Shown piece by piece: positions 2,597 to 19,001 of a stretch of 20,685 nt of DNA. The notes below the pieces were generated by a model. That model saw only the letters and a list, made by a program, of their open reading frames with translations, had not been told where the DNA came from and did not search any database. The DNA lies in the IMG/VR virus record IMGVR_UViG_648861009_000006. The stretch is one strand, 5' to 3'. The DNA is from a virus. Lineage: Duplodnaviria; Heunggongvirae; Uroviricota; Caudoviricetes. Both the position numbers and the translations under genes were made by a program. Each line of letters begins with the position of its first letter. Position 1 is the stretch's first letter.

Positions 2597-2757
2597 ACAG
2601 CCCCTCGTTTATTATTTATCTCCTCAGCCAGCCGCTGGGCTTTCAGTGGATTTTGGATAACAGAAAGGCCGGGAAATACCCAGCCTCGCTTTGTAACGGA
2701 GTAGACGAAAGTGATCGCGCCTACCCGGATATTATCGTGAGGATGCGTCATCGCCAT
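2569..2757 (-). CDS. Lambda orf60a-like protein, 62 aa
   Basis: ATG-initiated ORF ([19 protein letters not shown]...) overlapping the exo 3' end and the orf63 5' end in another frame, as in the lambda exo-proximal b region. Confidence 0.5.
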
Positions 2758-3428
2758 TGCTCCCCAAATACAAAACCAATTTCAGCCAGTGCCTCGTCCA
2801 TTTTTTCGATGAACTCCGGCACCATCTCGTCAAAACTCGCCATGTACTTTTCATCCCGCTCAACCACGACATAATGCAGTCCTTCACGCTTCATACGCGG
2901 GTCATAGTTGGCAAAGTACCAGGCATCTTTTCGTGTCACCCACATGCTGTACTGCACCTGGGCCATGTAAGCCGACTTTATGGCCTCGAAACCACCGAGC
3001 CGGAACTTCATGAAATCCCGGGAGGTAAACGGGCATTTCAGCTCAAGGCCATTGCCGTCACTGCATAAACCATCGGGAGAGCAGGCGGTGCGCATACTTT
3101 CGTCGCGATAGATGATCGGGGATTCAGTAACATTCACGCCGGAAGTGAATTCAAACAGAGTTCTGGCGTCGTTCTCGTACTGTTTTCCCCAGGCCAGCGC
3201 CTTAGCATTAACTTCCGGAGCCACACCGGTGCAAACCTCAGCCAGCAGGGTGTGGAAGTAGGACATTTTCATGTCAGGCCACTTCTTTCCTGAGCGGGGC
3301 TTTGCTATCACGTTGTGAACTTGTGAAGCGGTGATGACGCCGAGCCGTAATTTGTGCCACGCATCATCTCCCTGCTCGATAGCTCTCACGTCGATCCCGG
3401 TACGCTGCAGGATAATGTCCGGTGTCAT
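2748..3428 (-). CDS. exo: Lambda exonuclease (Red alpha), 226 aa
   Basis: Translation [16 protein letters not shown]...GEQWR is essentially lambda Exo over its full length, with start-codon overlap with the bet stop. Confidence 0.97.
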
Positions 3429-4210
3429 GCTGCCACCTTCTGTTCAGTGGCTTTTTGTTTCAGGAATCCAAGAGCTTTCACTGCTTCGTCCTGTGTCAGT
3501 TCTGACGATGCACGAATGTCGCGGCGAAATATCTGGGAACAGAGCGGCAATAAGTCGTCATCCCATGTTTTATCCAGGGCGATCAGCAGAGTGTTAATCT
3601 CCTGCATGGTTTCATCGTTAACCGGAGTGATGTCGCGTTCCGGCTGACGTTCTGCAGTGTATGCGGTATTTTCGACAATGCGCTCGGCTTCATCCTTGTC
3701 ATAGATACCAGCAAATCCGAAGGCGAGACGGGCACACTGAATCATGGCTTTATGCCGTAACATCCGTTTGGGATGCGACTGCCACGGCCCCGTGATTTCT
3801 CTGCCTTCGCGAGTTTTGAATGGTTCGCGGCGGCATTCATCCATCCATTCGGTAACGCAGATCGGATGATTACGGTCCTTGCGGTAAATCCGGCATGTAC
3901 AGGATTCATTGTCCTGCTCAAAGTCCATGCCATCAAACTGCTGGTTTTCATTGATGATGCGGGACCAGCCATCAACGCCCACCACCGGAACGATGCCGTT
4001 CTGCTTATCAGGGAAGGCGTAAATTTCTTTCGTCCACGGATTAAGGCCGTACTGGTTGGCGACGATCAACAATGCGATGAACTGCGCATCGCTGGCATCA
4101 CCTTTAAATGCCGTCTGGCGAAGAGTGGTGATCAGTTCCTGTGGGTCGACAGAATCCATGCCGACACGTTCAGCCAGCTTCCCTGCCAGCGTTGCGAGTG
4201 CTGTACTCAT
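3425..4210 (-). CDS. bet: Red beta single-strand annealing protein, 261 aa
   Basis: Translation [66 protein letters not shown]... is lambda Bet in length and sequence. Confidence 0.97.
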
Positions 4211-4216
4211 CCGTTT

Positions 4217-4451
4217 TATACCTCTGAATCAATATCAACCTGGTGGTGAGCAATGGTTTCAACCATGTACCGGATGTGTTCTGCCATGCGCTCCTGAAAC
4301 TCAACATCGTCATCAAACGCACGGGTAATGGCTTTTTGCTGGCCCCGTGGCGTTGCAAATGATCGATGCATAGCGATTCAAACAGGTGCTGGGGCAGGCC
4401 TTTTTCCATGTCGTCTGCCAGTTCTGCCTCTTTCTCTTCACGGGCGATCTG
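4217..4451 (-). other. gam: Duplicated copy of the gam 3' segment (contains the gam stop codon at about 4217-4219); near-identical to 4751-4974 with a 1-bp T-run difference
   Basis: 4229-4451 repeats 4751-4974. Minus-strand reading gives the Gam C-terminus ...[14 protein letters not shown] followed by a stop. This copy has GGCTTTTTGCTGG where the other has GGCTTTTTTGCTGG, which frameshifts it. Confidence 0.6.
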
Positions 4452-4750
4452 NNNNNNNNNNNNNNNNNNNNNNNNNNNNNNNNNNNNNNNNNNNNNNNNN
4501 NNNNNNNNNNNNNNNNNNNNNNNNNNNNNNNNNNNNNNNNNNNNNNNNNNNNNNNNNNNNNNNNNNNNNNNNNNNNNNNNNNNNNNNNNNNNNNNNNNNN
4601 NNNNNNNNNNNNNNNNNNNNNNNNNNNNNNNNNNNNNNNNNNNNNNNNNNNNNNNNNNNNNNNNNNNNNNNNNNNNNNNNNNNNNNNNNNNNNNNNNNNN
4701 NNNNNNNNNNNNNNNNNNNNNNNNNNNNNNNNNNNNNNNNNNNNNNNNNN
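4452..4750. other. Run of 299 N (assembly gap)
   Basis: Unbroken N-run flanked by duplicated sequence. Confidence 0.95.
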
Positions 4751-5154
4751 TCAATATCAACCTGGTGGTGAGCAATGGTTTCAACCATGTACCGGATGTG
4801 TTCTGCCATGCGCTCCTGAAACTCAACATCGTCATCAAACGCACGGGTAATGGCTTTTTTGCTGGCCCCGTGGCGTTGCAAATGATCGATGCATAGCGAT
4901 TCAAACAGGTGCTGGGGCAGGCCTTTTTCCATGTCGTCTGCCAGTTCTGCCTCTTTCTCTTCACGGGCGATCTGCTGGTAGTGACGCGCCCAGCTCTGAG
5001 CCTCAAGACGATCCTGAATGTAATAAGCGTTCATGGCTGAACTCCTGAAATAGCTGTGAAAATATCGCCCGCGAAATGCCGGGCTGATTAGGAAAACAGG
5101 AAAGGGGGTTAGTGAATGCTTTTGCTTGATCTCAGTTTCAGTATTAATATCCAT
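4751..5154 (-). CDS. gam: Gam, RecBCD inhibitor (5' portion; the 3' end runs into the N-gap)
   Basis: Translation from ATG at 5154: [100 protein letters not shown]...HHQVDI, which is lambda Gam. Confidence 0.85.
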
Positions 5155-5252
5155 TTTTTATAAGCGTCGACGGCCTCACGAAACATCTTTTCATCGCCAA
5201 TAAAAGTGGCGATAGTGAATTTAGTCTGGATAGCCATAAGTGTTTGATCCAT
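5109..5252 (-). CDS. kil: Kil (host division inhibitor), 47 aa
   Basis: Internal ATG in the 5109..5378 ORF gives [47 protein letters not shown], matching lambda Kil. It overlaps the gam start by 46 nt, as in lambda. Confidence 0.85.
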
Positions 5253-5385
5253 TTTTTGGGACTCCTGGCTGATTAAGTATGTCGATAAGGCGTTTCCATC
5301 CGTCACGTAATTTACGGGTGATTCGTTCAAGTAAAGATTCGGAAGGGCAGCCAGCAACAGGCCACCCTGCAATGGCATATTGCAT
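5221..5385 (-). CDS. cIII: CIII (FtsH/HflB inhibitor), 54 aa
   Basis: Hand translation of the minus strand from ATG at 5383-5385 gives [54 protein letters not shown], matching lambda CIII. It is not in the ORF track because it is under 60 aa. Confidence 0.9.
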   Translation of the reverse strand: MQYAIAGWPVAGCPSESLLERITRKLRDGWKRLIDILNQPGVPKNGSNTYGYPD

Positions 5386-5457
5386 GGTGTGCTCCTTATT
5401 TATACATAACGAAAAACGCCTCGAGTGAAGCGTTATTGGTATGCGGTAACGCCGCGC

Positions 5458-5826
5458 TCAGGCGGCTTTGATAGTCATATCATCTGAATCAAATATTCCT
5501 GATGTATCGATATCGGTAATTCTTATTCCTTCGCTACCATCCATTGGAGGCCATCCTTCCTGACCATTTCCATCATTCCAGTCGAACTCACACACAACAC
5601 CATATGCATTTAAGTCGCTTGAAATTGCTATAAGCAGAGCATGTTGCGCCAGCATGATTAATACAGCATTTAATACAGAGCCGTGTTTATTGAGTCGGTA
5701 TTCAGAGTCTGACCAGAAATTATTAATCTGGTGAAGTTTTTCCTCTGTCATTACGTCATGGTCGATTTCAATTTCTATTGATGCTTTCCAGTCGTAATCA
5801 ATGATGTATTTTTTGATGTTTGACAT
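5458..5826 (-). CDS. ea10: Ea10-like early protein, 122 aa
   Basis: 122-aa ORF in the lambda ea10 position upstream of cIII; size and context match. Confidence 0.75.
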   Translation of the reverse strand: MSNIKKYIIDYDWKASIEIEIDHDVMTEEKLHQINNFWSDSEYRLNKHGSVLNAVLIMLAQHALLIAISSDLNAYGVVCEFDWNDGNGQEGWPPMDGSEGIRITDIDTSGIFDSDDMTIKAA

Positions 5827-5845
5827 CTATTCATATCCTCACAGA

Positions 5846-5872
5846 TAAAAAATCGCCCTCACATTGGAGGGC
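5846..5872 (-). terminator. Putative intrinsic terminator in the pL operon upstream of ea10 (tL-like)
   Basis: Hairpin GCCCTC-ACATTG-GAGGGC, followed on the minus strand by a U-run (plus-strand AAAAAA at about 5846-5852). Confidence 0.45.
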
Positions 5873-6086
5873 AAAGAAGATTTCCAATAATCAGAACAAG
5901 TCGGCTCCTGTTTAGTTACGAGCGACATTGCTCAGTGTATTCACTCGTTGGAATGAATACACAGTGCAGTGTTTATTAGTATGCCTGTCTTTTAACCACA
6001 TCAGGCTCGGTGGTTCTCGTGTACCCCTACAGCGAGAAATCGGATAAACTCTATTCACCCCTACAGAGAGCAAAAGAGAAACGCCG

Positions 6087-6668
6087 ATGAACAACTCATG
6101 GTGGCAGGAACTAATGCATTTTTTCCTGCAAGGAATGACACTTAAACAGTTGATTCATATGCTAATCATCCTGAACATATTGATTATTGTTATGCCTGTA
6201 AGCGTAAAAGAATGGATAAACCTGCATAATCCAGAAATCCTTCCTCATTACTGGATGTATTACATCCTGTTGTTTTGCGTTAGCTATGTGCTTAACGGCG
6301 TTGTTAATTCCGCTTATCACGCTGTGACTGTAAGAATTGAGATATTCGCTGCTCAGAAGCGCAAATCTAAAGAAGAGAAATACGTGCAAGATTTGTTTGA
6401 TTCGTTAACTCTTGGAGAAAGAGCGTATTTGGCATTCGCTGTAGCCGCTAATAACCAGCTAAAGACAGAAAAGGGAAGCCCTGAAGCAATCTCATTGCTC
6501 GAAAAAGGGCTTCTTATTCGGGTACCTTCTGCTACTGGATATCCTGAAATCGACCGTTTTGTTATCCCGGAACGCTATAGAAATGAGTGCTACATTAGGT
6601 TTGCTGGGAAGAAAGACAGTCTTATGGATGAACTTATCGCTCAGGATAAGCATGGCAAAAACAAGTAA
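6087..6668 (+). CDS. sieB: Superinfection exclusion protein B, 193 aa, membrane protein
   Basis: MNNSWWQELMHFFLQGMTLKQLIHMLIILNILIIVMPVSVKEW... with hydrophobic segments. It sits on the opposite strand between ea10 and N, as in lambda and P22. Confidence 0.85.
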   Translation: MNNSWWQELMHFFLQGMTLKQLIHMLIILNILIIVMPVSVKEWINLHNPEILPHYWMYYILLFCVSYVLNGVVNSAYHAVTVRIEIFAAQKRKSKEEKYVQDLFDSLTLGERAYLAFAVAANNQLKTEKGSPEAISLLEKGLLIRVPSATGYPEIDRFVIPERYRNECYIRFAGKKDSLMDELIAQDKHGKNK

Positions 6669-6684
6669 TTAGCAAATGAATTTA

Positions 6685-6993
6685 TCATCTCGCCGTCAGT
6701 TGTTTTGATTTCCGGTAGCCTGCCGCGTAAATAGCTACGTTTGGCAGGCAAACACTTCCACTGCATTCATCTACTTTCTTGCAGCGAAGGCTTCCGAGTG
6801 ATATTGCTTTTTCAGAAAGGCTTAACCGCTTTCTCGGGTCTTCCTGAACAGGTTCCTCACTGTCTGTGCCGAAGATCGAATCGATGATGTTGCAGATGGA
6901 ATCACGCTCGATGGCCAGCTTTCTGCGCCGCTCATGACGGCGAGTTTTGGCATTTCCTGCAAATGTTGATTTTCCGTACACGATTACCGTCAT
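6685..6993 (-). CDS. N: Antitermination protein N, P22 gene-24 type (about 102 aa)
   Basis: Internal ATG of the 6685..7077 ORF gives MTVIVYGKSTFAGNAKTRRHERRRKLAIERD..., an arginine-rich motif of the P22 N type. It lies just downstream of a nutL-like boxA/boxB. Confidence 0.8.
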   Translation of the reverse strand: MTVIVYGKSTFAGNAKTRRHERRRKLAIERDSICNIIDSIFGTDSEEPVQEDPRKRLSLSEKAISLGSLRCKKVDECSGSVCLPNVAIYAAGYRKSKQLTAR

Positions 6994-7435: not shown

Positions 7436-8335
7436 TTATTTGATTATTTCTTTTATAAAGACTTCTTTCGGTTGGTATTTTTTATCTGATGATTTGAGCT
7501 GGTACGTTATTGTTATATCAGCACGTACAGAAAATTTACCTGCAAAATCTGATGGGTTTACGTTGGGGCCAAGAACCATATTTACTCTTCGATCTATTAA
7601 TCCAGGGATAACAGCAGCCCAACCTTTCTCTGGATTGTCGAGGTCTAATGCACGGATTTCAACATCAACATCAAAATGATCCTGAGTATATGACTCTGGT
7701 GTGAAGACAACTTCAGTTGGGGCTTTTTTAATGGTTTCAGCGGGAATGGTCACTGTACCACCCCCTGTACCTATGACCATCGTAGATCCTTCGTCTGCCC
7801 TAGCTGGGGCAAGCGTCTTAATGGAACTTTTGGCAAGAGTCTTCTTATTGGTTACCGTGCTTTCTATGATTGCTTGAAGACGGTCAGGTGAAATATTAGC
7901 CTCACCGGCACCAATATTGATGATTGTATTGTTATTTGCTTCAAAGTGGGAGGTGTTGCTTGGAGCCATAGCCTTAGTTGCTAGAACTAAGCCATATCCA
8001 ACCAGACCAATAACAACAGCACCAACGAGAGCGTTTCTCATTTTCCCATTTCCGATCTTTGCATGAGCGCCAGCAAGAAACTTGTCCATTTCTTCTTGGC
8101 TACCAAAGAGGAGTTTAATAACAATATCTTCATAAAGGCTTCCTGCTTCTAATCGCGCAACATGCACCGATATATCAAGGATATTAGCCCCTGTCAGTTC
8201 CTGCAAAACACCTTCTGATTGTTTTGCGATGGCCTCCCACCCTTGAAGGGAGGTAATCACATCTTTGATGCTTACAGGTTCTTTAGTTGAATAATATATG
8301 TTTTCGGTAAAGGTTAAAGATAATTCTTGGGACAT
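7436..8335 (-). CDS. Uncharacterised 299-aa single-pass membrane protein in the rexAB-equivalent slot; candidate superinfection-exclusion or abortive-infection protein
   Basis: Long ORF co-oriented with and 129 bp downstream of cI. One strongly hydrophobic segment sits mid-protein (MRNALVGAVVIGLVGYGLVLATKAMAP), preceded by a K/R-rich stretch that suggests N-in topology, with a Gly/Thr-rich C-terminal domain. Codon usage is AT-rich and its own terminator follows. I recognise no homolog. Confidence 0.65.
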   Translation of the reverse strand: MSQELSLTFTENIYYSTKEPVSIKDVITSLQGWEAIAKQSEGVLQELTGANILDISVHVARLEAGSLYEDIVIKLLFGSQEEMDKFLAGAHAKIGNGKMRNALVGAVVIGLVGYGLVLATKAMAPSNTSHFEANNNTIINIGAGEANISPDRLQAIIESTVTNKKTLAKSSIKTLAPARADEGSTMVIGTGGGTVTIPAETIKKAPTEVVFTPESYTQDHFDVDVEIRALDLDNPEKGWAAVIPGLIDRRVNMVLGPNVNPSDFAGKFSVRADITITYQLKSSDKKYQPKEVFIKEIIK

Positions 8336-9916: not shown

Positions 9917-11317
9917 ATGACAAATACAGCAAAAATACTCAACTTCGGCAGAGGTAACTTTGCCGGACAGGAGCGTAATGTGGCAGATCTCGATGATGGT
10001 TACGCCAGACTATCAAATATGCTGCTTGAGGCTTATTCGGGCGCAGATCTGACCAAGCGACAGTTTAAAGTGCTGCTTGCCATTCTGCGTAAAACCTATG
10101 GGTGGAATAAACCAATGGACAGAATCACCGATTCTCAACTTAGCGAGATTACAAAGTTACCTGTCAAACGGTGCAATGAAGCCAAGTTAGAACTCGTCAG
10201 AATGAATATTATCAAGCAGCAAGGCGGCATGTTTGGACCAAACAAAAACATCTCAGAATGGTGCATCCCTCAAAACGAGGGAAAATCCCCTAAAACGAGG
10301 GATAAAACATCCCTCAAATTGGGGGATTGCTATCCCTCAAAACAGGGGGACACAAAAGACACTATTACAAAAGAAAAAAGAAAAGATTATTCGTCCGAGA
10401 ATTCTGGCGAATCCTCTGACCAGCCAGGAAAACGNNNNNNNNNNNNNNNNNNNNNNNNNNNNNNNNNNNNNNNNNNNNNNNNNNNNNNNNNNNNNNNNNN
10501 NNNNNNNNNNNNNNNNNNNNNNNNNNNNNNNNNNNNNNNNNNNNNNNNNNNNNNNNNNNNNNNNNNNNNNNNNNNNNNNNNNNNNNNNNNNNNNNNNNNN
10601 NNNNNNNNNNNNNNNNNNNNNNNNNNNNNNNNNNNNNNNNNNNNNNNNNNNNNNNNNNNNNNNNNNNNNNNNNNNNNNNNNNNNNNNNNNNNNNNNNNNN
10701 NNNNNNNNNNNNNNNNNNNNNNNNNNNNNNNNNNNNNNNNNNNNNNNNNNNNNNNNNNNNNNNNNNNNNNNNNNNNNNNNNNNNNNNNNNNNNNNNNNNN
10801 NNNNNNNNNNNNNNNNNNNNNNNNNNNNNNNNNNNNNNNNNNNNNNNNNNNNNNNNNNNNNNNNNNNNNNNNNNNNNNNNNNNNNNNTTATTCGTCCGAG
10901 AATTCTGGCGAATCCTCTGACCAGCCAGAAAACGATCTTTCTGTGGTTAAACCGGATGCTGCAATTCAGAGCGGCAGTAAGTGGGGAACAGCAGAAGACC
11001 TGACCGCCGCAGAGTGGATGTTTGACATGGTGAAGACCATCGCGCCATCAGCCAGAAAACCGAATTTTGCTGGGTGGGCTAACGATATCCGCCTGATGCG
11101 TGAACGTGACGGACGTAACCACCGCGATATGTGTGTGCTTTTCCGCTGGGCCTGCCAGGACAACTTCTGGTCCGGTAACGTGCTGAGTCCGGCCAAACTC
11201 CGCGACAAGTGGACCCAGCTCGAAATCAACCGTAACAAGCAACAGGCTGGCGTGACAGCCGGAAAACCAAAACTCGACCTGACAAACACTGACTGGATTT
11301 ACGGGGTGGATCTATGA
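9917..11317 (+). CDS. O: Replication initiator O, interrupted by a 453-N gap with about 45 bp duplicated on both sides
   Basis: The N-terminal part MTNTAKILNFGRGNFAGQERNVADLDDGYARLSNMLLEAYSGADLTKRQFKVLLAILRKTYGWNKPMDRITDSQLSEITKLPVKRCNEAKLELVRMNIIKQQGGMFGPNKNISEWCIPQNEGKSPKTRDKTSLKL... and the C-terminal part ...ENDLSVVKPDAAIQSGSKWGTAEDLTAAEWMFDMVKTIAPSARKPNFAGWANDIRLMRERDGRNHRDMCVLFRWACQDNFWSGNVLSPAKLRDKWTQLEINRNKQQAGVT... both match lambda O. YSSENSGESSDQP is present on both sides of the gap. Confidence 0.85.
   Translation: MTNTAKILNFGRGNFAGQERNVADLDDGYARLSNMLLEAYSGADLTKRQFKVLLAILRKTYGWNKPMDRITDSQLSEITKLPVKRCNEAKLELVRMNIIKQQGGMFGPNKNISEWCIPQNEGKSPKTRDKTSLKLGDCYPSKQGDTKDTITKEKRKDYSSENSGESSDQPGKXXXXXXXXXXXXXXXXXXXXXXXXXXXXXXXXXXXXXXXXXXXXXXXXXXXXXXXXXXXXXXXXXXXXXXXXXXXXXXXXXXXXXXXXXXXXXXXXXXXXXXXXXXXXXXXXXXXXXXXXXXXXXXXXXXXXXXXXXXXXXXXXXXXXXXXXYSSENSGESSDQPENDLSVVKPDAAIQSGSKWGTAEDLTAAEWMFDMVKTIAPSARKPNFAGWANDIRLMRERDGRNHRDMCVLFRWACQDNFWSGNVLSPAKLRDKWTQLEINRNKQQAGVTAGKPKLDLTNTDWIYGVDL
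10260..10395 (+). repeat. ori-lambda: four iterons (ATCCCTCAAAACGAGGGA-like) plus the adjacent AT-rich region, inside O
   Basis: Four direct repeats: CATCCCTCAAAACGAGGGA, AAATCCCCTAAAACGAGGGA, TAAAACATCCCTCAAATTGGGGGA and TTGCTATCCCTCAAAACAGGGGGA. They are followed by an A-rich tract (ACAAAAGAAAAAAGAAAAGATTAT). Confidence 0.8.
10435..10887. other. Run of 453 N (assembly gap) inside O
   Basis: N-run. The about 45 bp before it (TTATTCGTCCGAGAATTCTGGCGAATCCTCTGACCAGCCAGgAAAACG) is repeated just after it with a 1-bp difference. Confidence 0.95.
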
Positions 11318-12375: not shown

Positions 12376-12816
12376 ATGAAAAAACTAACCTTTGAAATTC
12401 GATCTCCAGCACATCAGCAAAACGCTATTCACGCAGTACAGCAAATCCTTCCAGACCCAACCAAACCAATCGTAGTAACCATTCAGGAACGCAACCGCAG
12501 CTTAGACCAAAACAGGAAGCTATGGGCCTGCTTAGGTGACGTCTCTCGTCAGGTTGAATGGCATGGTCGCTGGCTGGATGCAGAAAGCTGGAAGTGTGTG
12601 TTTACCGCAGCATTAAAGCAGCAGGATGTTGTTCCTAACCTTGCCGGGAATGGCTTTGTGGTAATAGGCCAGTCAACCAGCAGGATGCGTGTAGGCGAAT
12701 TTGCGGAGCTATTAGAGCTTATACAGGCATTCGGTACAGAGCGTGGCGTTAAGTGGTCAGACGAAGCGAGACTGGCTCTGGAGTGGAAAGCGAGATGGGG
12801 AGATCGGGCTGCATGA
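12376..12816 (+). CDS. ninB: NinB recombination protein, 146 aa
   Basis: Translation MKKLTFEIRSPAHQQNAIHAVQQILPDPTKPIVVTIQERNRSLDQNRKLWACLGDVSRQVEWHGRWLDAESWKCVF... matches lambda NinB. Confidence 0.9.
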   Translation: MKKLTFEIRSPAHQQNAIHAVQQILPDPTKPIVVTIQERNRSLDQNRKLWACLGDVSRQVEWHGRWLDAESWKCVFTAALKQQDVVPNLAGNGFVVIGQSTSRMRVGEFAELLELIQAFGTERGVKWSDEARLALEWKARWGDRAA

Positions 12817-13233
12817 CTATCAAATCAAATACGCCAGCACACGACAAGGACTGCTGGCAAACGCCGCTTTGGCTTTTTGATGCACTGGATATTGAGTTTG
12901 GATTCTGGCTGGATTCGGCAGCGAGCGACAAAAATGCTCTGTGTGCTCACTGGCTAACTGAGGCCGACGACGCGCTCAATTCTGAGTGGGTAAGCCACGG
13001 TGCAATCTGGAATAACCCACCGTACAGCAATATCAGGCCGTGGGTGGAAAAAGCCGCTGAGCAGTGCATACAACAGCGACAGACGGTAGTTATGCTTGTG
13101 CCAGAGGATATGTCAGTCGGATGGTTCAGCAAGGCTCTGGAGAGTGTCGACGAAGTTCGCATTATCACTGATGGACGGATTAATTTTATCGAACCATCGA
13201 CAGGGCTGGAGAAGAAGGGGAAACCAGCAAAGG
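12813..13233 (+). CDS. Phage Dam-like DNA N6-adenine methyltransferase (5' part only; the remainder is lost in the N-gap)
   Basis: ATG at 12813 overlaps the ninB stop (ATGA). The translation contains the N6-adenine methyltransferase catalytic motif NPPY (AIWNNPPYSNIRPWVEKA) and resembles phage Dam-family enzymes. Confidence 0.75.
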
Positions 13234-14202
13234 NNNNNNNNNNNNNNNNNNNNNNNNNNNNNNNNNNNNNNNNNNNNNNNNNNNNNNNNNNNNNNNNNNN
13301 NNNNNNNNNNNNNNNNNNNNNNNNNNNNNNNNNNNNNNNNNNNNNNNNNNNNNNNNNNNNNNNNNNNNNNNNNNNNNNNNNNNNNNNNNNNNNNNNNNNN
13401 NNNNNNNNNNNNNNNNNNNNNNNNNNNNNNNNNNNNNNNNNNNNNNNNNNNNNNNNNNNNNNNNNNNNNNNNNNNNNNNNNNNNNNNNNNNNNNNNNNNN
13501 NNNNNNNNNNNNNNNNNNNNNNNNNNNNNNNNNNNNNNNNNNNNNNNNNNNNNNNNNNNNNNNNNNNNNNNNNNNNNNNNNNNNNNNNNNNNNNNNNNNN
13601 NNNNNNNNNNNNNNNNNNNNNNNNNNNNNNNNNNNNNNNNNNNNNNNNNNNNNNNNNNNNNNNNNNNNNNNNNNNNNNNNNNNNNNNNNNNNNNNNNNNN
13701 NNNNNNNNNNNNNNNNNNNNNNNNNNNNNNNNNNNNNNNNNNNNNNNNNNNNNNNNNNNNNNNNNNNNNNNNNNNNNNNNNNNNNNNNNNNNNNNNNNNN
13801 NNNNNNNNNNNNNNNNNNNNNNNNNNNNNNNNNNNNNNNNNNNNNNNNNNNNNNNNNNNNNNNNNNNNNNNNNNNNNNNNNNNNNNNNNNNNNNNNNNNN
13901 NNNNNNNNNNNNNNNNNNNNNNNNNNNNNNNNNNNNNNNNNNNNNNNNNNNNNNNNNNNNNNNNNNNNNNNNNNNNNNNNNNNNNNNNNNNNNNNNNNNN
14001 NNNNNNNNNNNNNNNNNNNNNNNNNNNNNNNNNNNNNNNNNNNNNNNNNNNNNNNNNNNNNNNNNNNNNNNNNNNNNNNNNNNNNNNNNNNNNNNNNNNN
14101 NNNNNNNNNNNNNNNNNNNNNNNNNNNNNNNNNNNNNNNNNNNNNNNNNNNNNNNNNNNNNNNNNNNNNNNNNNNNNNNNNNNNNNNNNNNNNNNNNNNN
14201 NN
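13234..14202. other. Run of 969 N (assembly gap) within the nin region
   Basis: N-run with no flanking duplication detected. It probably hides the methyltransferase 3' end and the ninE/ninF/ninG-rusA-type genes normally found before Q. Confidence 0.95.
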
Positions 14203-14262
14203 AACGTCTTCGCACCGCTGGGTCGCGTCTGCGCTTATATCGTTTCCCCGGTTCTGTTTTGA
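14203..14262 (+). other. 3' end (19 codons plus stop) of an unidentified gene emerging from the gap
   Basis: An open frame reads out of the N-run and ends ...NVFAPLGRVCAYIVSPVLF*. Identity unknown. Confidence 0.3.
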
Positions 14263-14403
14263 CCGATTACCGAATACTGAAGAATTACGCCAAAACACTG
14301 ACAGGAGCAGGAGTATGAAGTCAGAGATAACAATCAACTAATACTGTTTTGCTGATTTTTGCTTGTAATTGGCGTTCTGGTCTGATTTTTGTGGAGTAAG
14401 TTG

Positions 14404-14781
14404 ATGCGTGATATTCAGATGGTTCTTGAGCGTTGGGGAGCGTGGGCGGCTAATAATCATGAAGATGTGACCTGGTCGTCCATTGCCGCCGGTTTTAAGG
14501 GATTAATTCCTTCAAAAGTAAAATCTCGCCCGCAATGTTGTGACGATGACGCGATGATCATTTGCGGGTGCATGGCCCGTCTGAAAAATAACAACAGCGA
14601 TTTGCATGATTTGTTAGTGGACTATTATGTCGGCGGCATGACTTTTATGGCGCTTGCGCGTAAGCATGGTAGATCTGATTGTTGGATTGGCAGGATGCTC
14701 CAAAAAGCTGAGGGCGTAGTGGAGGGCATGCTGATGGTGTTGGATCTCAGATTGGAGATGGATGCTGATTGTTTGAGATAA
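14404..14781 (+). CDS. Q: Late-gene antiterminator Q (short Q of DLP12/phage-21/82 type, about 125 aa)
   Basis: Translation [34 protein letters not shown]...[16 protein letters not shown]... with GGAG RBS 8 nt upstream of ATG 14404. The listed ORF start at 14389 is a TTG. It is followed by a promoter-like region and a strong terminator. Confidence 0.8.
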
Positions 14782-14794
14782 TTAAAGGAAAAGT

Positions 14795-14850
14795 TGCTGT
14801 CTGGTTATCATTAGACTAATGTTTCAAATGTTAGAATCGCAACGTAGTTA
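14795..14850 (+). promoter_or_regulatory. Putative late promoter pR' / qut region
   Basis: Sigma70-like elements directly after Q, either TTGCTG-17 bp-TAATGT or TTAGAC-15 bp-TAGAAT. The exact hexamers are uncertain. Confidence 0.3.
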
Positions 14851-14880
14851 TGATCATATAACAGCTTGTTCCCTGATTTA

Positions 14881-14909
14881 GCCAGCCTCCCCAAAGGCTG
14901 GTTTTTTTT
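14881..14909 (+). terminator. tR'-like intrinsic terminator (target of Q antitermination)
   Basis: Stem CCAGCC / GGCTGG with loop TCCCCAAA, followed by T8, about 100 bp downstream of Q. Confidence 0.65.
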
Positions 14910-14937
14910 CTAATAAGTATCAATCCGGTTAGGTATT

Positions 14938-15462
14938 TTATTGTTTGACCCATAATAGTTCATTGACATTGAATCCCAATTTTTGAGCAGTACGCACATA
15001 GTCTGCTTTTACATTATCTGGAATAGTTGGAGTCCGTGCCAGAATCCATAGGTATTCTCTGTTCGGACCACTGACAAGAGCATACTTATACTCATCATCC
15101 AGTTTGATTACATTATAGCCACCATAGAAGGGGCCAAAAAACGAAACCTTCAACGCTGCAGTTGTATTATCTCCTGTAAAGTATGCTTTACCTTCGCTCT
15201 CGCTCCATTTGTTTTTCGTTGGGTCATATCCACGATTAAGTACACTAATCCCTCCGTCGTTCCGTTTCCCATAAGTGGCGCTGACCTGTTCCAGACCACG
15301 TTCAAATCGGTTCTCAAGCCGAGCTATTTCATACCATTTTCCGAGGTAGCGGTTGGTGTCAAAATTTGTAATCGGCTGCACACCTTTAGGTGGTGTCGGG
15401 GCCTTACATGCTATCAGAGTGAAAGAGAGTGCAATGCCAGTCAACACAGGCCATAACTTCAT
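14938..15462 (-). CDS. Blc-like bacterial lipocalin, outer-membrane lipoprotein, 174 aa
   Basis: Signal peptide with lipobox (LIAC), then NFDTNRYLGKWYEIARLENRFERGLEQVSATY...GKAYFTG...LKVSFFGPFYGGYNVI...YLWILARTP, closely resembling E. coli Blc. Confidence 0.85.
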   Translation of the reverse strand: MKLWPVLTGIALSFTLIACKAPTPPKGVQPITNFDTNRYLGKWYEIARLENRFERGLEQVSATYGKRNDGGISVLNRGYDPTKNKWSESEGKAYFTGDNTTAALKVSFFGPFYGGYNVIKLDDEYKYALVSGPNREYLWILARTPTIPDNVKADYVRTAQKLGFNVNELLWVKQ

Positions 15463-15653
15463 AATATATCCTGTACTTTTGATAGTTGAGAGTAAGTATT
15501 AAAGATAGATGATTACTACCGATCACCTAAAGAACTTTCCTACTATATTAGGAATAGTCCATAACAAAAAATTGTCAGTGATGACGGCAGAAAGGCAGTT
15601 TAGGTCGTGTACTACACTGTTAACCTGTTAATGAATTAGTCAAGGGGTAGGCA

Positions 15654-16613
15654 ATGATAAAAAAACCTGTCGTTGGGATCAGTGGTTGTTTGGCCGGTTC
15701 TTCTGTCCGTTTTGATGGTGGTCACAAAAGAGCTAGCTTTTTAATGGACAAATTACTGGAATGGGTAACATTCAAACCAGTATGTCCGGAAATGGCTATA
15801 GGGCTTCCAGTTCCGCGTCCTGCTCTACGTCTTGTTCGCTCGGCGCAAGGAAATATACGGATGTGTTTCAGCCACGACCAGAATGAGGATGTTACAGAGA
15901 AAATGACAGAGTTTAGTCGTTCTTATCTTGACAAATTAAAGGATGTATCGGGATTTGTGGTTTGTGCAAAATCTCCTAGCTGTGGTATGGAACGCGTGCG
16001 TGTATATGATGAAAATGGTAATCGTGGTCGTAAAGATGGAGTGGGACTATTTACGAGCACGTTGATGGAAAGGTTTTCCTGGCTACCGGTTGAAGAGGAT
16101 GGGCGACTACATGATCCAGTGCTTCGTGAAAACTTTGTTGAAAGAGTATTTGCTTTACATGAGCTCAATCATCTTTATAAAGCGAAATTATCAAGAAGGG
16201 AATTATTAGCTTTTCATAGCCGTTATAAGCTTCAGTTGTTGGCGCATAGCCAGGCCGGTTATAAAGAGATGGGGCCATTTGTGGCTGCAATACATGAGTG
16301 GGCAGACCTTGAATCATACTTTGAGGTGTATCGTGAGAAGCTGATGGCGATTCTCAGAAAACCTGCATCACGTAAAAATCACACGAATGTGCTGATGCAT
16401 ATACAGGGATATTTTAGTAACTGCTTAAATACACGTCAGCGTAAAGAGTTGAGCGATGTTATACTTAACTATCGAGCTGGCACGCTACCTCTTCTTGCGC
16501 CATTAACTTTGCTGAAGCATTACTTGGCAGAGTATCCTGATGATTATTTGCTTATACAGAATTACTTCCACCCCTATCCTGATGAACTGGCTCTAAGACT
16601 CTTGGTGAACTAG
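15654..16613 (+). CDS. DUF523 (TudS/YbgA-like, Cys-rich) plus DUF1722 fusion protein, 319 aa
   Basis: The N-terminal region has conserved cysteines (ISGCLAGSSVRFDGGHK, FKPVCPEM, VVCAKSPSCGMERV) typical of DUF523 Fe-S proteins (thiouracil desulfidase TudS family). The C-terminal region resembles YbgA/DUF1722. It is divergent from the lipocalin gene. Confidence 0.7.
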   Translation: MIKKPVVGISGCLAGSSVRFDGGHKRASFLMDKLLEWVTFKPVCPEMAIGLPVPRPALRLVRSAQGNIRMCFSHDQNEDVTEKMTEFSRSYLDKLKDVSGFVVCAKSPSCGMERVRVYDENGNRGRKDGVGLFTSTLMERFSWLPVEEDGRLHDPVLRENFVERVFALHELNHLYKAKLSRRELLAFHSRYKLQLLAHSQAGYKEMGPFVAAIHEWADLESYFEVYREKLMAILRKPASRKNHTNVLMHIQGYFSNCLNTRQRKELSDVILNYRAGTLPLLAPLTLLKHYLAEYPDDYLLIQNYFHPYPDELALRLLVN

Positions 16614-16922
16614 GCGTTTGGAATGCACCAACAAGATGATTTTCTCCTTAGAGAATGTTTACAATCGTAAAAACTTCACTATGATATCTATAGTTGTACA
16701 GTTTGTAAAAAAATTCGGTTCATGCTTAAGGTAATGTTAATATGTTAATTAATGATTAATAATCAAGCAAGCCAAAAATAGTTCTGTTTAATCTAGTATT
16801 ACATAAATATTTTAAAGAAAATATCAAAGTTCATGATGATATAATGAGATTTTTCTCATTGAAAATATGGCAATTTTAATATTTCCACCTATACTTACTT
16901 AACTCAAATCTAATTATGTCAG

Positions 16923-17663
16923 GTGGATGGTATGCCATGCATATGTTCTATCATTTTGGTTTTGAACTCGTTTGATATCCGGCTTGGTAAAGAAAAAATC
17001 TCTCTAAAAAAAGGAAGTGTTGTTGCTATAGAATACAATTTAAAAGTTTTCTTTTCTTCAAATAAAGATAATATAATGATCGTGGATATTGAAGAGAAAA
17101 CAGTTAATGACTTCTTTAAAAACAATACACTCTCACCTTTTTCTGTAAGAAGATTTTATTCAGCATACTTGATAGTAAACTGTACAGACTATTCATTGTT
17201 AAAGAACTTGATAGGTTGCTTGAATTGTGATGGTGAAACTACGGCTGTAGTTAAAAATTCAATATTATTTGCATGTCTTGCTATTTTATCCTCGGAAAAA
17301 ATGTTTCAGAGTTTTTTGTTTGGGTGTCTTAATAGTTTAGGAAGCAAAGTTAAGGCTATTATTCACTCGGACATATCTGCAGCATGGAGACTTTGTGATA
17401 TTTCTTCAAGACTATGTCTGAGTGAAAGTTTGTTAAAAAGAAAACTAAAACACGAAGGCTTATCATTTAGCAAATTAATTCTTGAAGAACGAATGGTGAT
17501 GGCTGAAAGGTTATTAAGCTACAATTTCTATCCTGTTGGGAAAGTTGCTAAAATATGTGGTTATGAAAGCGCGTCATATTTTATAAGTGTTTTCAGAAGA
17601 TATTTTGGTGTTCCCCCCCATGAATATTCATCAAGATTTTTTTTAGAAAAAGGCAAGATGTAA
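16923..17663 (+). CDS. AraC/XylS-family transcriptional regulator, 246 aa (AppY/GadX-like prophage regulator type)
   Basis: C-terminal AraC HTH signature (KICGYESASYFISVFRRYFGVPPHEY), very AT-rich codon usage, and a long AT-rich leader of about 300 bp. Confidence 0.8.
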   Translation: MDGMPCICSIILVLNSFDIRLGKEKISLKKGSVVAIEYNLKVFFSSNKDNIMIVDIEEKTVNDFFKNNTLSPFSVRRFYSAYLIVNCTDYSLLKNLIGCLNCDGETTAVVKNSILFACLAILSSEKMFQSFLFGCLNSLGSKVKAIIHSDISAAWRLCDISSRLCLSESLLKRKLKHEGLSFSKLILEERMVMAERLLSYNFYPVGKVAKICGYESASYFISVFRRYFGVPPHEYSSRFFLEKGKM

Positions 17664-17724: not shown

Positions 17725-17755
17725 ACGCCAGAATAATCGCTGGCGTTTTTCTTTT
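17725..17755 (+). terminator. Putative intrinsic terminator downstream of the AraC-family gene
   Basis: Stem ACGCCAG / CTGGCGT with an 8-nt loop, followed by TTTTTCTTTTC. Confidence 0.45.
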
Positions 17756-17830
17756 CTAATGTAACTTCTGTATCTTTCCCTCTTTCATTCCAAACCGTGT
17801 ACACCATCCGTTATTCGCGGAGGTGAGGCT

Positions 17831-18046
17831 ATGAAATCCATGGACAAGTTAACAACGGGCATTGCCTACGGCACCTCTGCAGGCAGTGCTGGCTACTGGT
17901 TTTTACAGTGGCTTGATCAGGTCAGTCCGTCACAGTGGGCGGCGATTGGAGTGCTTGGAAGCCTTGTGTTGGGTTTTCTCACTTATCTGACAAACCTTTA
18001 TTTCAAGATTAAAGAAGATAAGCGTAAGGCTGCGAGAGGTGAATAA
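17831..18046 (+). CDS. S: Phage-21-type pinholin S (dual-start antiholin/holin), 71 aa
   Basis: [71 protein letters not shown] has two TM segments and the dual-start motif M-K-S-M, matching S21/EssD. Confidence 0.9.
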
Positions 18047-18543
18047 TGTCGCCATCATTACGCAAGGCTGTAGCAGCTGCTATTGGTGGTGGGGCTGTTG
18101 CCATAGCGTCTGTGCTCATCACTGGTCCGAGTGGTGACGATGGTCTGGAAGGTGTCAGCTACATACCATATAAAGATATTGTTGGTGTATGGACTGTATG
18201 TCACGGGCATACAGGAAAAGACATCATGCTCGGTAAAACGTATACCAAAGCAGAATGCAAAGCACTCTTGAATAAAGACCTTGCCACTGTCGCCAGACAA
18301 ATTAACCCGTACATCAAAGTCGATATACCGGAAACAACGCGCGGCGCTCTTTACTCATTCGTTTACAACGTGGGTGCTGGCAATTTCAGAACATCGACGC
18401 TTCTTCGCAAAATAAACCAGGGCGATATCAAAGGCGCATGTGATCAGTTACGTCGCTGGACATATGCTGGCGGTAAGCAATGGAAAGGTCTCATGACTCG
18501 TCGTGAGATTGAGCGTGAAATCTGTTTGTGGGGTCAGCAATGA
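18046..18543 (+). CDS. R: SAR endolysin (lysozyme R21/RrrD type), 165 aa
   Basis: N-terminal signal-anchor-release segment ([20 protein letters not shown]) followed by a lysozyme domain; the start overlaps the S stop. Confidence 0.9.
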
Positions 18544-19001
18544 ACAGAGTAACCGCGATTATCTCCGCTCTGGTTATCTGCATCATCGTCTGCCTGTCAT
18601 GGGCTGTTAATCATTACCGTGATAACGCCATTACCTACAAAGCCCAGCGCGACAAAAATGCCAGAGAACTGAAGCTGGCGAACGCGGCAATTACTGACAT
18701 GCAGATGCGTCAGCGTGATGTTGCTGCGCTCGATGCAAAATACACGAAGGAGTTAGCTGATGCGAAAGCTGAAAATGATGCTCTGCGTGATGATGTTGCC
18801 GCTGGTCGTCGTCGGTTGCACATCAAAGCAGTCTGTCAGTCAGTGCGTGAAGCCACCACCGCCTCCGGCGTGGATAATGCAGCCTCCCCCCGACTGGCAG
18901 ACACCGCTGAACGGGATTATTTCACCCTCAGAGAGAGGCTGATCACGATGCAAAAACAACTGGAAGGAACCCAGAAGTATATTAATGAGCAGTGCAGATA
19001 G
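18540..19001 (+). CDS. Rz: Rz i-spanin, 153 aa
   Basis: N-terminal TM segment followed by a coiled-coil-like periplasmic domain; ATG 18540 overlaps the R stop. Confidence 0.85.
18760..18942 (+). CDS. Rz1: Rz1 o-spanin lipoprotein, 60 aa, embedded in Rz in the +1 frame
   Basis: [20 protein letters not shown] lipoprotein signal followed by a proline-rich mature region ([18 protein letters not shown]), wholly inside Rz. Confidence 0.8.

What the first reader, a model, noticed from the sequence alone, without database searches (positions are those of the whole stretch)
15654..16613. Phage-borne DUF523 (TudS-like Fe-S) plus DUF1722 fusion protein
The 319-aa protein has conserved cysteine motifs in its N-terminal half that fit the DUF523 family. 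That family includes [4Fe-4S] thiouracil desulfidases (TudS) and the E. coli YbgA neighbourhood next to photolyase. The C-terminal half looks like DUF1722. A thionucleobase or thionucleoside desulfidase-type enzyme on a temperate phage is unexpected. It could act on thiolated tRNA or nucleotide pools, or on DNA backbone or base modifications relevant to phage-host conflict.
Basis: partly seen in the sequence, partly recalled or inferred. Interest (0 to 1): 0.55.

Follow-up and report, generated by a model that had tools for sequence, protein, structure and literature searches.

The report
Phage-borne tRNA thiouridine eraser RudS
The gene is real and encodes RudS, an iron-sulfur enzyme that removes the sulfur from 4-thiouridine in transfer RNA, but this exact phage protein was already cloned and tested in a 2024 paper, so the finding is correct and not new.

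Summary
The 319-aa ORF at 15654-16613 (+) exists exactly as described. It has a DUF523/TudS domain (aa 7-149) followed by DUF1722 (aa 192-309). The three Fe-S cysteines (C12, C44, C110) and the catalytic Glu46, Arg55, Ser107 and Ser109 are all present. The protein is 100% identical to H3V29_gp66 of Escherichia phage 1H12. That protein is "RudS_vir" in Jamontas et al. 2024 (NAR, PMC11417400), where overexpression lowered 4-thiouridine (s4U) in E. coli tRNA. The molecular function is therefore already known. What I add is context. The gene sits in the cargo slot between antiterminator Q with its terminator and holin S of a lambda-like prophage. It is always paired with a divergent Blc-type lipocalin and nearly always followed by an AT-rich AraC-like regulator. 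This cassette is in about 20% of complete E. coli genomes, although the literature says E. coli lacks RudS. It is under purifying selection (dN/dS 0.11-0.14). The blc|rudS pair also occurs on chromosomes of Kluyvera, Serratia and other genera, there often with a MerR-type regulator that the phage lacks. Why a phage carries it is untested. My best guess is near-UV stress conversion of the lysogen, or protection of translation during induction. Interest is low.

The parts
14404..14781 (+). Antiterminator Q (phage-82/QuuD type, 125 aa). It is the upstream border of the cargo slot and is always linked to the cassette.
   Evidence: Pfam PF06530 E=2.5e-51 and phrog_79. Start placed from the annotation of identical phages and from the sequence. 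Present upstream of rudS in 79 of 80 IMG/VR loci.
14782..14912 (+). Late-promoter/terminator region. It holds a presumed pR' and a tR'-like intrinsic terminator (hairpin 14880-14903 plus a T8 run). The promoter hexamers were not pinned down.
   Evidence: Terminator scan. The hairpin is identical in three cassette classes apart from a 1-nt change in the length of the T run. Assigning it as tR' is an inference from lambdoid genome layout.
14938..15462 (-). Blc-type outer-membrane lipocalin lipoprotein (174 aa, lipobox LIAC). It is transcribed divergently from rudS and antisense to the late transcript.
   Evidence: Pfam PF08212 E=2.2e-43. NCBIfam Blc subfamily 315.5 bits against a cutoff of 267. 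At a fixed distance (-714) from rudS in 80 of 80 IMG/VR loci. 78% identical to the Serratia rubidaea lipocalin that neighbours a chromosomal rudS. dN/dS 0.07-0.10.
15463..15653 (.). 191-bp divergent spacer between blc and rudS. It has only weak sigma-70-like matches, an 18-bp palindrome TTCCTACTA|TATTAGGAA at 15537-15554, and a good Shine-Dalgarno (AGGGG) before rudS.
   Evidence: About 90% identical between cassette classes, no better than the coding DNA. No LexA box.
15654..16613 (+). rudS: tRNA 4-thiouridine desulfidase, 319 aa, identical to RudS_vir of phage 1H12.
   Evidence: 100% over aa 1-319. PMC11417400.
15672..16100 (+). TudS/DUF523 catalytic domain (aa 7-149): Cys12, Cys44 and Cys110 as [4Fe-4S] ligands, with catalytic Glu46, Arg55, Ser107 and Ser109.
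   Evidence: Pfam. Residues indexed. At least 90% conserved in 107 diverse homologues. The equivalents in RudS_KT (E51, R60, S111, S113) abolish activity when mutated. The AF2 model matches TudS structures 6ZW9/6Z92 with TM 0.70-0.73.
16227..16580 (+). DUF1722 all-helical domain (aa 192-309; helices span 155-317 in the model). It is the proposed tRNA anticodon-arm binding module.
   Evidence: Pfam. AF2 secondary structure. No solved structural relative. The tRNA-binding role comes from docking and mutagenesis of RudS_KT and was not tested for this protein.
16614..16931 (.). AT-rich (27% GC) spacer upstream of the AraC-like gene. It has several promoter-like matches and is poorly conserved between cassette classes (66-68% identity).
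16932..17663 (+). AraC-family regulator (243 aa, 31% GC), distantly YdeO/GadX-like. It is the third cargo gene.
   Evidence: Pfam HTH_18/HTH_AraC. NCBIfam YdeO 112.7 bits, far below the cutoff of 348. phrog_1450. Present in 73 of 80 IMG/VR loci.
17725..17756 (+). Terminator-like hairpin with a T run, between the AraC-like gene and holin S.
17831..19001 (+). Lysis genes: holin S (17831-18046), lysozyme R (18046-18543) and Rz. They form the downstream border of the cargo slot.
   Evidence: Pfam. Homology with sister phage ev207 resumes at 17820.

Best explanation
The ORF encodes RudS, a two-domain tRNA de-modifying enzyme. Shown in the literature for this exact sequence: when overexpressed in E. 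coli it lowers the 4-thiouridine (s4U) content of bulk tRNA. Shown for close family members and inferred here from full conservation of the residues: a [4Fe-4S] cluster is held by Cys12, Cys44 and Cys110. Its fourth iron binds the thiocarbonyl sulfur of s4U8. Glu46, oriented by Arg55, Ser107 and Ser109, activates water, and s4U is converted to U with loss of sulfide. The helical DUF1722 domain holds the tRNA by its anticodon arm. Inferred from anatomy: the gene is phage cargo (a 'moron') in the exchangeable slot between Q/tR' and holin S. It was captured together with a divergent Blc lipocalin from an enterobacterial chromosome, where this pair belongs to MerR-controlled stress loci that the RudS authors describe as light-responsive. 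It is sense to the Q-antiterminated late transcript, so it should be made during lytic growth, and it may also be expressed in the lysogen from the divergent spacer. My preferred biological role is lysogenic conversion. By lowering s4U, the known near-UV sensor, it would blunt UVA-induced tRNA cross-linking, growth delay and the ppGpp burst in the roughly 20% of E. coli strains that carry it. I put this role at only about 0.35.
For: Identity: 960/960 nt and 319/319 aa identical to phage 1H12 H3V29_gp66, which is RudS_vir in Table 1 of PMC11417400. Activity: all six RudS orthologues, including RudS_vir, reduced tRNA s4U in vivo, RudS_vir more weakly than RudS_KT and RudS_ST. Cys-to-Ala mutants were built for RudS_vir, and all the cysteine variants made across the RudS homologues lost activity except RudS_TT C47A. 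Domains. Catalytic residues are present, at least 90% conserved across 107 homologues of 34-92% identity, and essential in RudS_KT. Structure: AF2 pLDDT 96.4, pTM 0.93, and the N-domain matches TudS crystal structures at E about 1e-6. Selection: dN/dS is 0.11-0.14 between prophage classes and no catalytic residue is among the 21 substitutions; 1064 of 1082 E. coli copies cover at least 80% of the gene length. Cargo status: sister phage ev207 is homologous up to 14763 and again from 17820 but carries a porin in between. The cassette order Q|blc(-)|rudS|AraC|S holds in 73 of 80 viral contigs and in DLP12-like and Qin-like prophages. Chromosomal origin: blc(-)|rudS(+) is directly adjacent in 11 species genomes and has a MerR/MlrA-like gene between the two in 8. 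The Kluyvera pair is in a non-phage context. Role: RudS_KT overexpression cut the UVA growth delay from about 105 to about 60 min, and RudS genes sit in light-responsive operons.
Against: RudS_vir was the weaker enzyme on tRNA despite good solubility, and it gave the shortest lag on 4-thiouracil, so free thio-bases or thio-nucleotides may matter more for it than for other RudS proteins. All activity data come from overexpression; nothing is known about expression from the prophage. I found no convincing own promoter, no LexA box, and no extra conservation of the spacer. The UVA phenotype was shown only for RudS_KT. The host of most carriers is a gut bacterium that sees little light, which weakens the photo-stress rationale.
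Confidence: 0.85

Rival explanations
1. The enzyme is the same, but the beneficiary is the phage in its lytic phase. rudS lies downstream of pR'/tR' in the sense orientation, so Q-modified RNA polymerase reads through it just before the lysis genes. After sunlight or UV induction, s4U8-C13 cross-links leave tRNA uncharged, stall translation and raise ppGpp, which inhibits lambdoid replication and lytic development. Erasing s4U would keep late protein synthesis going.
For: Position and orientation relative to Q, the conserved terminator and S. No convincing independent promoter or LexA box. (p)ppGpp inhibits replication and lytic development of lambda and Stx phages (PMC4770323). The link from UVA through s4U to growth delay and ppGpp is described.
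Against: Late expression leaves little time to erase the bulk tRNA pool, and already cross-linked s4U is not a known substrate. blc, its constant partner, is antisense to the late transcript, so it must be expressed otherwise, which points to lysogen expression for the pair. The same pair exists on non-phage chromosomes. Sister phages do without it.
Confidence: 0.3
2. In the phage the protein mainly works like stand-alone TudS. It would salvage 4-thiouracil or 4-thio-UMP released from degraded tRNA into uracil or UMP, feeding nucleotide pools.
For: RudS_vir gave the shortest lag among RudS proteins when a pyrF auxotroph had to grow on 4-thiouracil, while its tRNA activity was comparatively low. 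TudS enzymes recycle 4-thio-UMP (PMC10611767, abstract).
Against: No RudS supported growth like TudS did, and the authors conclude that thiouracils are not the primary substrates. The DUF1722 domain is intact, strongly conserved and under purifying selection, which is unnecessary for a base-salvage enzyme. s4U is a very small pool.
Confidence: 0.1
3. It is a counter-defence or conflict gene. It would act on thio-modified DNA (phosphorothioate or thio-bases), or remove s4U so that a tRNA-targeting host nuclease or toxin no longer recognises its substrate.
For: Cargo slots of temperate phages often hold conflict genes. No direct evidence was obtained.
Against: No PADLOC family match for RudS, Blc or the AraC-like protein. 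The family chemistry is C4-thiocarbonyl desulfuration, not P-S cleavage. Chromosomal homologues sit in MerR-controlled stress operons with CFA synthase, SDR and amine oxidase genes, not in defence islands.
Confidence: 0.04
4. It is a functionless passenger dragged along with the Q allele and decaying in prophages.
For: Some copies are destroyed: BL21(DE3) keeps only the first 147 nt before an IS3. IS insertions and frameshifted AraC-like genes occur.
Against: dN/dS is 0.11-0.14 over about 8% nucleotide divergence. 1064 of 1082 copies cover at least 80% of the gene length. All catalytic residues are retained. The gene is present in plaque-forming phages.
Confidence: 0.03

Closest known systems
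RudS_vir (Escherichia phage 1H12, NC_049947, H3V29_gp66), Jamontas et al. 2024, NAR 52:10543
   Same: Identical nucleotide and protein sequence, and the same neighbours: Q, Blc, RudS, AraC-like gene, holin.
   Different: Nothing at the gene level. The window is a mosaic sibling of 1H12: 89% of it is covered at 99.9% identity. Part of the uncovered sequence is three masked N runs totalling 1721 nt, about 8% of the window.
RudS_ST (Salmonella LT2 STM1389, 'ORF319') and other enterobacterial chromosomal RudS
   Same: Same length (319 aa), same Cys12/44/110 numbering and same two-domain order. The nearest chromosomal proteins are 71-76% identical.
   Different: Chromosomal copies sit behind a MerR/MlrA-type regulator or at the end of an SDR, amine oxidase, DUF1365, CFA synthase, DUF2878, DUF3833 operon. 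The phage copy has no MerR gene and lies in the late operon.
RudS_KT (Pseudomonas putida PP_0741), the biochemically characterised reference
   Same: Catalytic set conserved: C17/C49/C114 correspond to C12/C44/C110, E51 to E46, R60 to R55, S111/S113 to S107/S109, R24 to R19 and G27 to G22.
   Different: N26 of RudS_KT, which contacts U45, corresponds to D21 here, and Y25 corresponds to F20. RudS_KT is part of a LitR/photolyase operon.
TudS (stand-alone DUF523, PDB 6Z92/6ZW9), a [4Fe-4S] thiouracil desulfidase
   Same: Same fold and ligand motifs in the N-terminal 150 aa.
   Different: TudS lacks DUF1722, acts on free 2- and 4-thiouracil and 4-thio-UMP, and does not lower tRNA s4U. About 27% identity.
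E. coli K-12 YbgA (stand-alone DUF1722, upstream of photolyase phr)
   Same: Homologous to aa 160-315.
   Different: It has no catalytic domain and no effect on tRNA s4U. The NCBIfam equivalog cutoff is not met (189.6 against 237).
Cargo genes in the Q-S slot of lambdoid phages (for example the nmpC/ompD porin; stx in Stx phages)
   Same: Same insertion slot, bounded by the 3' end of Q and about 10 nt before S. Sister phages ev207, ev017 and PhiR63_2 carry a porin there.
   Different: The cargo here is a tRNA-modification eraser plus a lipocalin plus a regulator, not a surface protein or toxin. The stx comparison is from general knowledge and was not tested here.

Membership tests
RudS (TudS-DUF1722 tRNA s4U desulfidase) | TudS/DUF523 domain followed by DUF1722 in one polypeptide. 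The paper's criterion is both domains at E<0.001, more than 80 aa aligned, in this order. | tested here: met
   PF04463 at aa 7-149 (E=3.6e-40) and PF08349 at aa 192-309 (E=1.3e-40). The criterion is quoted.
RudS (TudS-DUF1722 tRNA s4U desulfidase) | Three conserved cysteines that ligate a [4Fe-4S] cluster with one free iron. | tested here: met
   C12, C44 and C110 are present, at least 90% conserved, aligned to the TudS ligands, and listed for RudS_vir in Table 1. The cluster itself was not observed here.
RudS (TudS-DUF1722 tRNA s4U desulfidase) | Catalytic Glu, two Ser and Arg (RudS_KT E51, S111, S113, R60). | tested here: met
   E46, S107, S109 and R55 are present and nearly invariant in alignment A1.
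RudS (TudS-DUF1722 tRNA s4U desulfidase) | Lowers s4U in tRNA. | not testable with these tools
   Reported for the identical protein in PMC11417400 Fig. 3A. Sequence identity was verified here.
RudS (TudS-DUF1722 tRNA s4U desulfidase) | Two-domain fold: an alpha/beta TudS core plus a helical DUF1722. | tested here: met
   AF2 pLDDT 96.4, with strands and helices at aa 6-148 and helices at aa 155-317. Foldseek finds TudS at TM 0.70-0.73.
RudS (TudS-DUF1722 tRNA s4U desulfidase) | Host makes s4U (ThiI present), as in most RudS-bearing genomes. | not tested
   E. coli ThiI is the reference s4U synthase (introduction of the paper). I did not search the host genomes.
Stand-alone TudS thiouracil desulfidase | Single-domain protein of about 150-166 aa that lets a pyrF auxotroph grow on 2- and 4-thiouracil. 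| tested here: not met
   The protein is 319 aa with a second domain. In the paper no RudS grew on 2-thiouracil, and RudS_vir grew on 4-thiouracil only after a lag.
YbgA (NCBIfam PRK10167 equivalog) | Whole-protein score at or above the curated cutoff of 237 bits, for a roughly 169-aa DUF1722-only protein. | tested here: not met
   189.6 bits, aa 160-315 only. RefSeq nevertheless names it 'YbgA family protein'.
Lambdoid 'moron' (cargo gene in the Q-S slot) | Lies between conserved phage genes and is replaced by unrelated DNA in sibling phages. | tested here: met
   Homology with ev207 stops at 14763 and resumes at 17820. ev207 has a porin there.
Lambdoid 'moron' (cargo gene in the Q-S slot) | Own promoter and terminator allowing expression from the repressed prophage. 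| tested here: inconclusive
   Only weak promoter-like matches at chance frequency (12 found against 11.4 expected). A terminator-like hairpin lies at 17725-17746, after the AraC-like gene.
Known anti-phage defence systems (PADLOC) | Match to a defence-system protein model. | tested here: not met
   No hit for RudS, Blc or the AraC-like protein.

The most novel reading that the evidence does not exclude
A temperate phage has taken a host module that its describers link to light stress (Blc lipocalin plus the tRNA s4U eraser RudS) in a form stripped of its MerR-type regulator. It has wired the module into the Q-dependent late operon. Erasure of the cell's near-UV sensor would then be coupled to prophage induction: the DNA damage that triggers induction would also switch off the s4U-dependent translation arrest and ppGpp burst that would otherwise block lambdoid lytic development. 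If so, a fifth of E. coli strains would differ from K-12 in their near-UV and stringent physiology because of a prophage.
Probability: 0.2. Interest if true: 0.55.

Novelty: already known. Interest (0 to 1): 0.2.

Why it matters
At the molecular level there is nothing new, because the identical protein is a published, assayed member of the RudS family. Three contextual points are worth keeping. (1) The primary paper and a 2026 review both state that E. coli lacks RudS. This is true only for K-12-type strains: about 20% of complete E. coli genomes carry a near full-length prophage copy (1064 of 5426). BL21(DE3), the assay host in that paper, carries an IS3-truncated remnant. Studies of s4U, UVA growth delay or tRNA epitranscriptomics in natural E. 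coli isolates should check for it. (2) RudS travels as a fixed unit with a Blc lipocalin, on phages and on chromosomes of several genera. This is a testable hint that the two act in one stress response. (3) No held paper that mentions both RudS and phages discusses why a phage carries a tRNA-modification eraser.

Tried and rejected
(a) The four long overlapping ORFs at 12750-14340 looked odd. They are artefacts of a masked run of N at 13234-14202; two more N runs lie at 4452-4750 and 10435-10887. (b) I tested whether the unannotated 175-aa ORF next to rudS in the Citrobacter operon is a Blc relative. It is not. (c) I considered that the phage deleted merR from a blc-merR-rudS locus. No trace of merR is in the window, but regulator-less blc|rudS pairs also exist on Kluyvera chromosomes, so the loss cannot be assigned to the phage. 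(d) A LexA-box search upstream of rudS found only a 1-mismatch match inside the coding region, at chance frequency. (e) No tRNA genes in the window. (f) A profile-based scan of viral contigs with the diverse alignment failed because no block was conserved enough. The single-protein scan worked. (g) tblastn against deposited phages found full-length RudS only in the E. coli lambdoid set. Hits in Listeria, Enterococcus and Pseudomonas 'phage' records are short, TudS-domain only and 28-32% identical, in unannotated fragments, and were not pursued. [quoted passage not shown] (i) The exact pR' hexamers could not be assigned with confidence from the sequence.
Full report
OBSERVATION. Pfam assigns the N-terminal half (aa 7-149) to PF04463, now named '2-thiouracil desulfurase' and formerly DUF523 (E=3.6e-40). 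It assigns the C-terminal half (aa 192-309) to PF08349, DUF1722 (E=1.3e-40). Both scores are several-fold above their gathering cutoffs. In a direct phmmer alignment they fall on the corresponding motifs of the crystallised TudS enzyme 6Z92.

WHAT IT IS. The gene is 960/960 nt identical to positions 42278-43237 of Escherichia phage 1H12 (NC_049947) and to ten sibling 'Lambda_ev' Jouyvirus genomes. The protein is 319/319 identical. In NC_049947 this CDS is locus tag H3V29_gp66. That locus tag is listed in Table 1 of Jamontas et al. 2024 (Nucleic Acids Res 52:10543, PMC11417400) as 'RudS_vir', with conserved cysteines Cys12, Cys44 and Cys110. The authors had the viral gene synthesised and expressed it in E. 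coli. Like five bacterial orthologues, it lowers the 4-thiouridine content of total tRNA. Its effect is weaker than that of RudS_KT or RudS_ST despite good soluble expression, and it gives the shortest lag of any RudS on 4-thiouracil in a pyrF auxotroph. C12A, C44A and C110A versions of RudS_vir were built. The paper states that all the cysteine variants made across the RudS homologues lost activity, with RudS_TT C47A as the single exception. The molecular identity and activity of this exact protein are therefore published.

INDEPENDENT CHECKS. I aligned the window protein with 106 full-length homologues of 34-92% identity, drawn from two database searches. C12, C44, E46, R55, S107, S109 and C110 are each conserved in at least 90% of sequences. 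These are the positional equivalents of RudS_KT C17, C49, E51, R60, S111, S113 and C114, whose mutation abolishes activity. An AlphaFold2 model built on that alignment is very confident (mean pLDDT 96.4, pTM 0.93). It shows an alpha/beta domain (aa 6-148) followed by an all-helical domain (aa 155-317). Foldseek against the PDB returns only TudS structures as significant matches (6ZW9, 6Z96, 6Z93, 6Z92; E about 1e-6; TM 0.70-0.73 normalised to TudS). Nothing matches the helical domain. The family is large: 1175 clusters at 50% identity match at E<=1e-30.

SURROUNDINGS. The window is the early and late-regulatory arm of a lambda-like temperate phage. It carries lambda-type integrase, exonuclease/RecT, SieB, N, an S24 cI-like repressor, O/P, Ren, NinB, Dam, Q, holin, lysozyme, Rz and Bor. 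rudS lies in the slot between antiterminator Q (14404-14781) and holin S (17831). The order is as follows:
- Q.
- A 131-bp region ending in a strong intrinsic-terminator-like hairpin with a T8 run (14880-14912), in the position of tR'.
- A Blc-type lipocalin lipoprotein on the minus strand (14938-15462).
- A 191-bp spacer.
- rudS.
- A 318-bp spacer of 27% GC.
- An AraC-family regulator of 31% GC (16932-17663).
- A second terminator-like hairpin (17725-17746).
- S.

Comparison with the sibling phage ev207 fixes the borders of the exchangeable module. Homology runs to 14763 (the last codons of Q) and resumes at 17820 (11 nt before S). In between, ev207 carries a porin gene. This is the classic cargo ('moron') slot of lambdoid phages.

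DISTRIBUTION. A match to rudS is present in 1082 of 5426 complete E. coli genomes. 1064 of these cover at least 80% of the gene. 110 are at 99% identity or more and 971 are at 90-95%. The three-gene cassette matches in 1152 genomes. In every case I inspected the layout is Q | blc(-) | rudS | HTH/AraC | holin, both in a DLP12-like and in a Qin-like prophage. In 80 IMG/VR viral contigs, blc is at a fixed offset in 80, Q is present in 79, and the AraC-like gene plus holin in 73. BL21(DE3) retains Q, blc and the first 147 nt of rudS, cut by an IS3. Between the two main sequence classes rudS has dN/dS of 0.11-0.14 and blc has 0.07-0.10. None of the 21 amino-acid differences touches a catalytic residue. 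The statement that E. coli lacks RudS, made in the primary paper and repeated in a 2026 review, therefore applies to K-12-type strains only.

ORIGIN. No species-representative genome has a RudS more than 76% identical to the phage protein. Among 71 enterobacterial and other gammaproteobacterial species genomes, rudS sits in one of five settings:
- 20 at the end of an operon ending in DUF3833.
- 14 directly behind a MerR/MlrA-like regulator.
- 11 directly divergent from a Blc lipocalin (for example Kluyvera).
- 8 in blc(-)-merR(+)-rudS(+) order (Buttiauxella, Kosakonia, Raoultella, Enterobacter).
- 18 with none of these within 3 kb.

In the three DUF3833-type loci read in full (Citrobacter, Klebsiella, Pectobacterium) the operon runs SnoaL, SDR, amine oxidase, DUF1365, CFA synthase, DUF2878, an unassigned ORF, DUF3833, rudS. 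Serratia rubidaea, from a separate look-up, also has the blc-merR-rudS order. The Kluyvera cryocrescens pair is flanked by a helicase and a glycosyl hydrolase, so it is not in a phage. The phage Blc is 78% identical to the Serratia rubidaea lipocalin of such a locus, about as diverged as RudS itself at 75%. The blc|rudS pair was thus probably captured as one piece. The phage has the regulator-less form, with no MerR-like coding remnant in the window. The AT-rich AraC-like gene has a different composition and is much less conserved between cassette classes (82-87% against 92-95%), so it is probably a separate acquisition.

HOW IT MOST LIKELY WORKS. Shown in the literature for this sequence: lowering of tRNA s4U in vivo. 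Inferred from residue conservation and from the TudS and RudS_KT mechanism: three cysteines hold a [4Fe-4S] cluster, the free iron binds the thiocarbonyl sulfur of flipped-out s4U8, and Glu46 (positioned by Arg55, Ser107 and Ser109) activates water. DUF1722 binds the anticodon arm. Inferred from anatomy: rudS is sense to the Q-antiterminated late transcript and should be transcribed on induction. blc is antisense to it and needs its own promoter in the shared spacer, which may also serve rudS in the lysogen. I could not identify a convincing promoter, operator or LexA box.

Two biological roles remain open. (i) Lysogenic conversion: less s4U means less UVA-induced s4U8-C13 cross-linking, a shorter growth delay and a smaller ppGpp burst. 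This was shown for RudS_KT overexpression, which cut the delay from about 105 to about 60 min. (ii) A lytic-phase benefit: keeping translation running and ppGpp low, since ppGpp inhibits lambdoid replication and lytic development (PMC4770323). I slightly prefer (i), because the constant partner blc cannot be a late-operon gene and because the same pair exists on chromosomes. Neither role has been tested. A TudS-like salvage role is a minor rival, kept alive by the comparatively good growth of RudS_vir cells on 4-thiouracil. A role against DNA thio-modifications has no support.

COMPARISON AND NOVELTY. By every sequence and structure criterion I could test, the protein is a member of the RudS family, and it is identical to a tested member. 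It is not a stand-alone TudS, because it has a second domain. It is not the YbgA equivalog (189.6 bits against a cutoff of 237). PHROGs already holds it as phrog_3275, listed with unknown function. Verdict: already known. The residual interest lies in three things: the unexplained reason a phage carries a tRNA-modification eraser, the fixed Blc partnership, and the correction that a fifth of E. coli strains encode RudS.

LIMITS. I could not obtain the RudS_KT sequence, so residue mapping to it rests on the published cysteine numbering and motif offsets, supported by the family alignment. Promoter and terminator assignments are pattern matches. The 20% figure refers to complete RefSeq assemblies, which are biased towards clinical isolates.

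Noticed in passing
window 7436-8335 (-): A 299-aa ORF lies between N and the cI-like repressor, in the slot that rexAB occupies in lambda. It has no Pfam or PADLOC family and matches only phrog_4506, which has unknown function. It is a candidate lysogen-expressed exclusion or defence gene. Sibling phage ev207 has a DUF1828 protein plus a hypothetical protein there instead.
   Followed up: partly
window 4452-4750, 10435-10887, 13234-14202: Three masked runs of N. They produce spurious long ORFs in several frames, for example the '521-aa Dam-YlcG fusion' at 12753-14318 and the 466-aa ORF at 9917-11317. They also lower BLAST coverage of the window.
   Followed up: yes
window 16932-17663 (+) and upstream spacer 16614-16931: An AraC-family regulator of 31% GC lies behind a 27% GC spacer, which looks like a horizontally acquired gene that H-NS might silence. 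It is distantly YdeO/GadX-like (112.7 bits against a cutoff of 348). It is frameshifted in some prophages and much more diverged between cassette classes than blc and rudS. Its targets are unknown. Prophage AraC-like regulators such as AppY are known to reprogram E. coli.
   Followed up: partly
L005 (E. coli BL21(DE3) NZ_CP053602.1, 1589487-1590505): The Qin-like prophage of BL21(DE3) keeps Q, blc and only the first 147 nt of rudS, truncated by an IS3. BL21(DE3) was the expression host for the published RudS assays.
   Followed up: yes
L095 (Serratia rubidaea) 4196-6960; L123 (Kluyvera cryocrescens) 2352-3960: A Blc-type lipocalin is divergently paired with rudS on chromosomes of several genera. 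8 species have a MerR/MlrA-like regulator between the two and 11 do not. This suggests a conserved functional or regulatory link between an outer-membrane lipocalin and the tRNA s4U eraser.
   Followed up: partly
L009-L011 (Salmonella enterica, for example serovar Derby): A RudS copy 74% identical to the window protein lies next to ttcA, with an integrase fragment in L011 only, plus DUF1367, Usp and a porin gene. This looks like a decayed prophage at the ttcA attachment site. It is a second, independent phage-associated RudS lineage.
   Followed up: no
window 15537-15554: An 18-bp near-perfect palindrome TTCCTACTA|TATTAGGAA lies in the blc-rudS spacer about 100 bp upstream of rudS. It is identical in L004 and differs at one base (15540) in L003. 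It is a possible operator.
   Followed up: partly
L149, L168 (MAG 'Candidatus Nanosynbacter sp.' contigs of 2-3 kb): Fragments 88-92% identical to the E. coli prophage RudS appear in a Saccharibacteria MAG. This is almost certainly a binning contaminant.
   Followed up: no
window 6087-6668 (+): A SieB superinfection-exclusion homologue (PF14163, E=1.2e-24) lies next to N.
   Followed up: no
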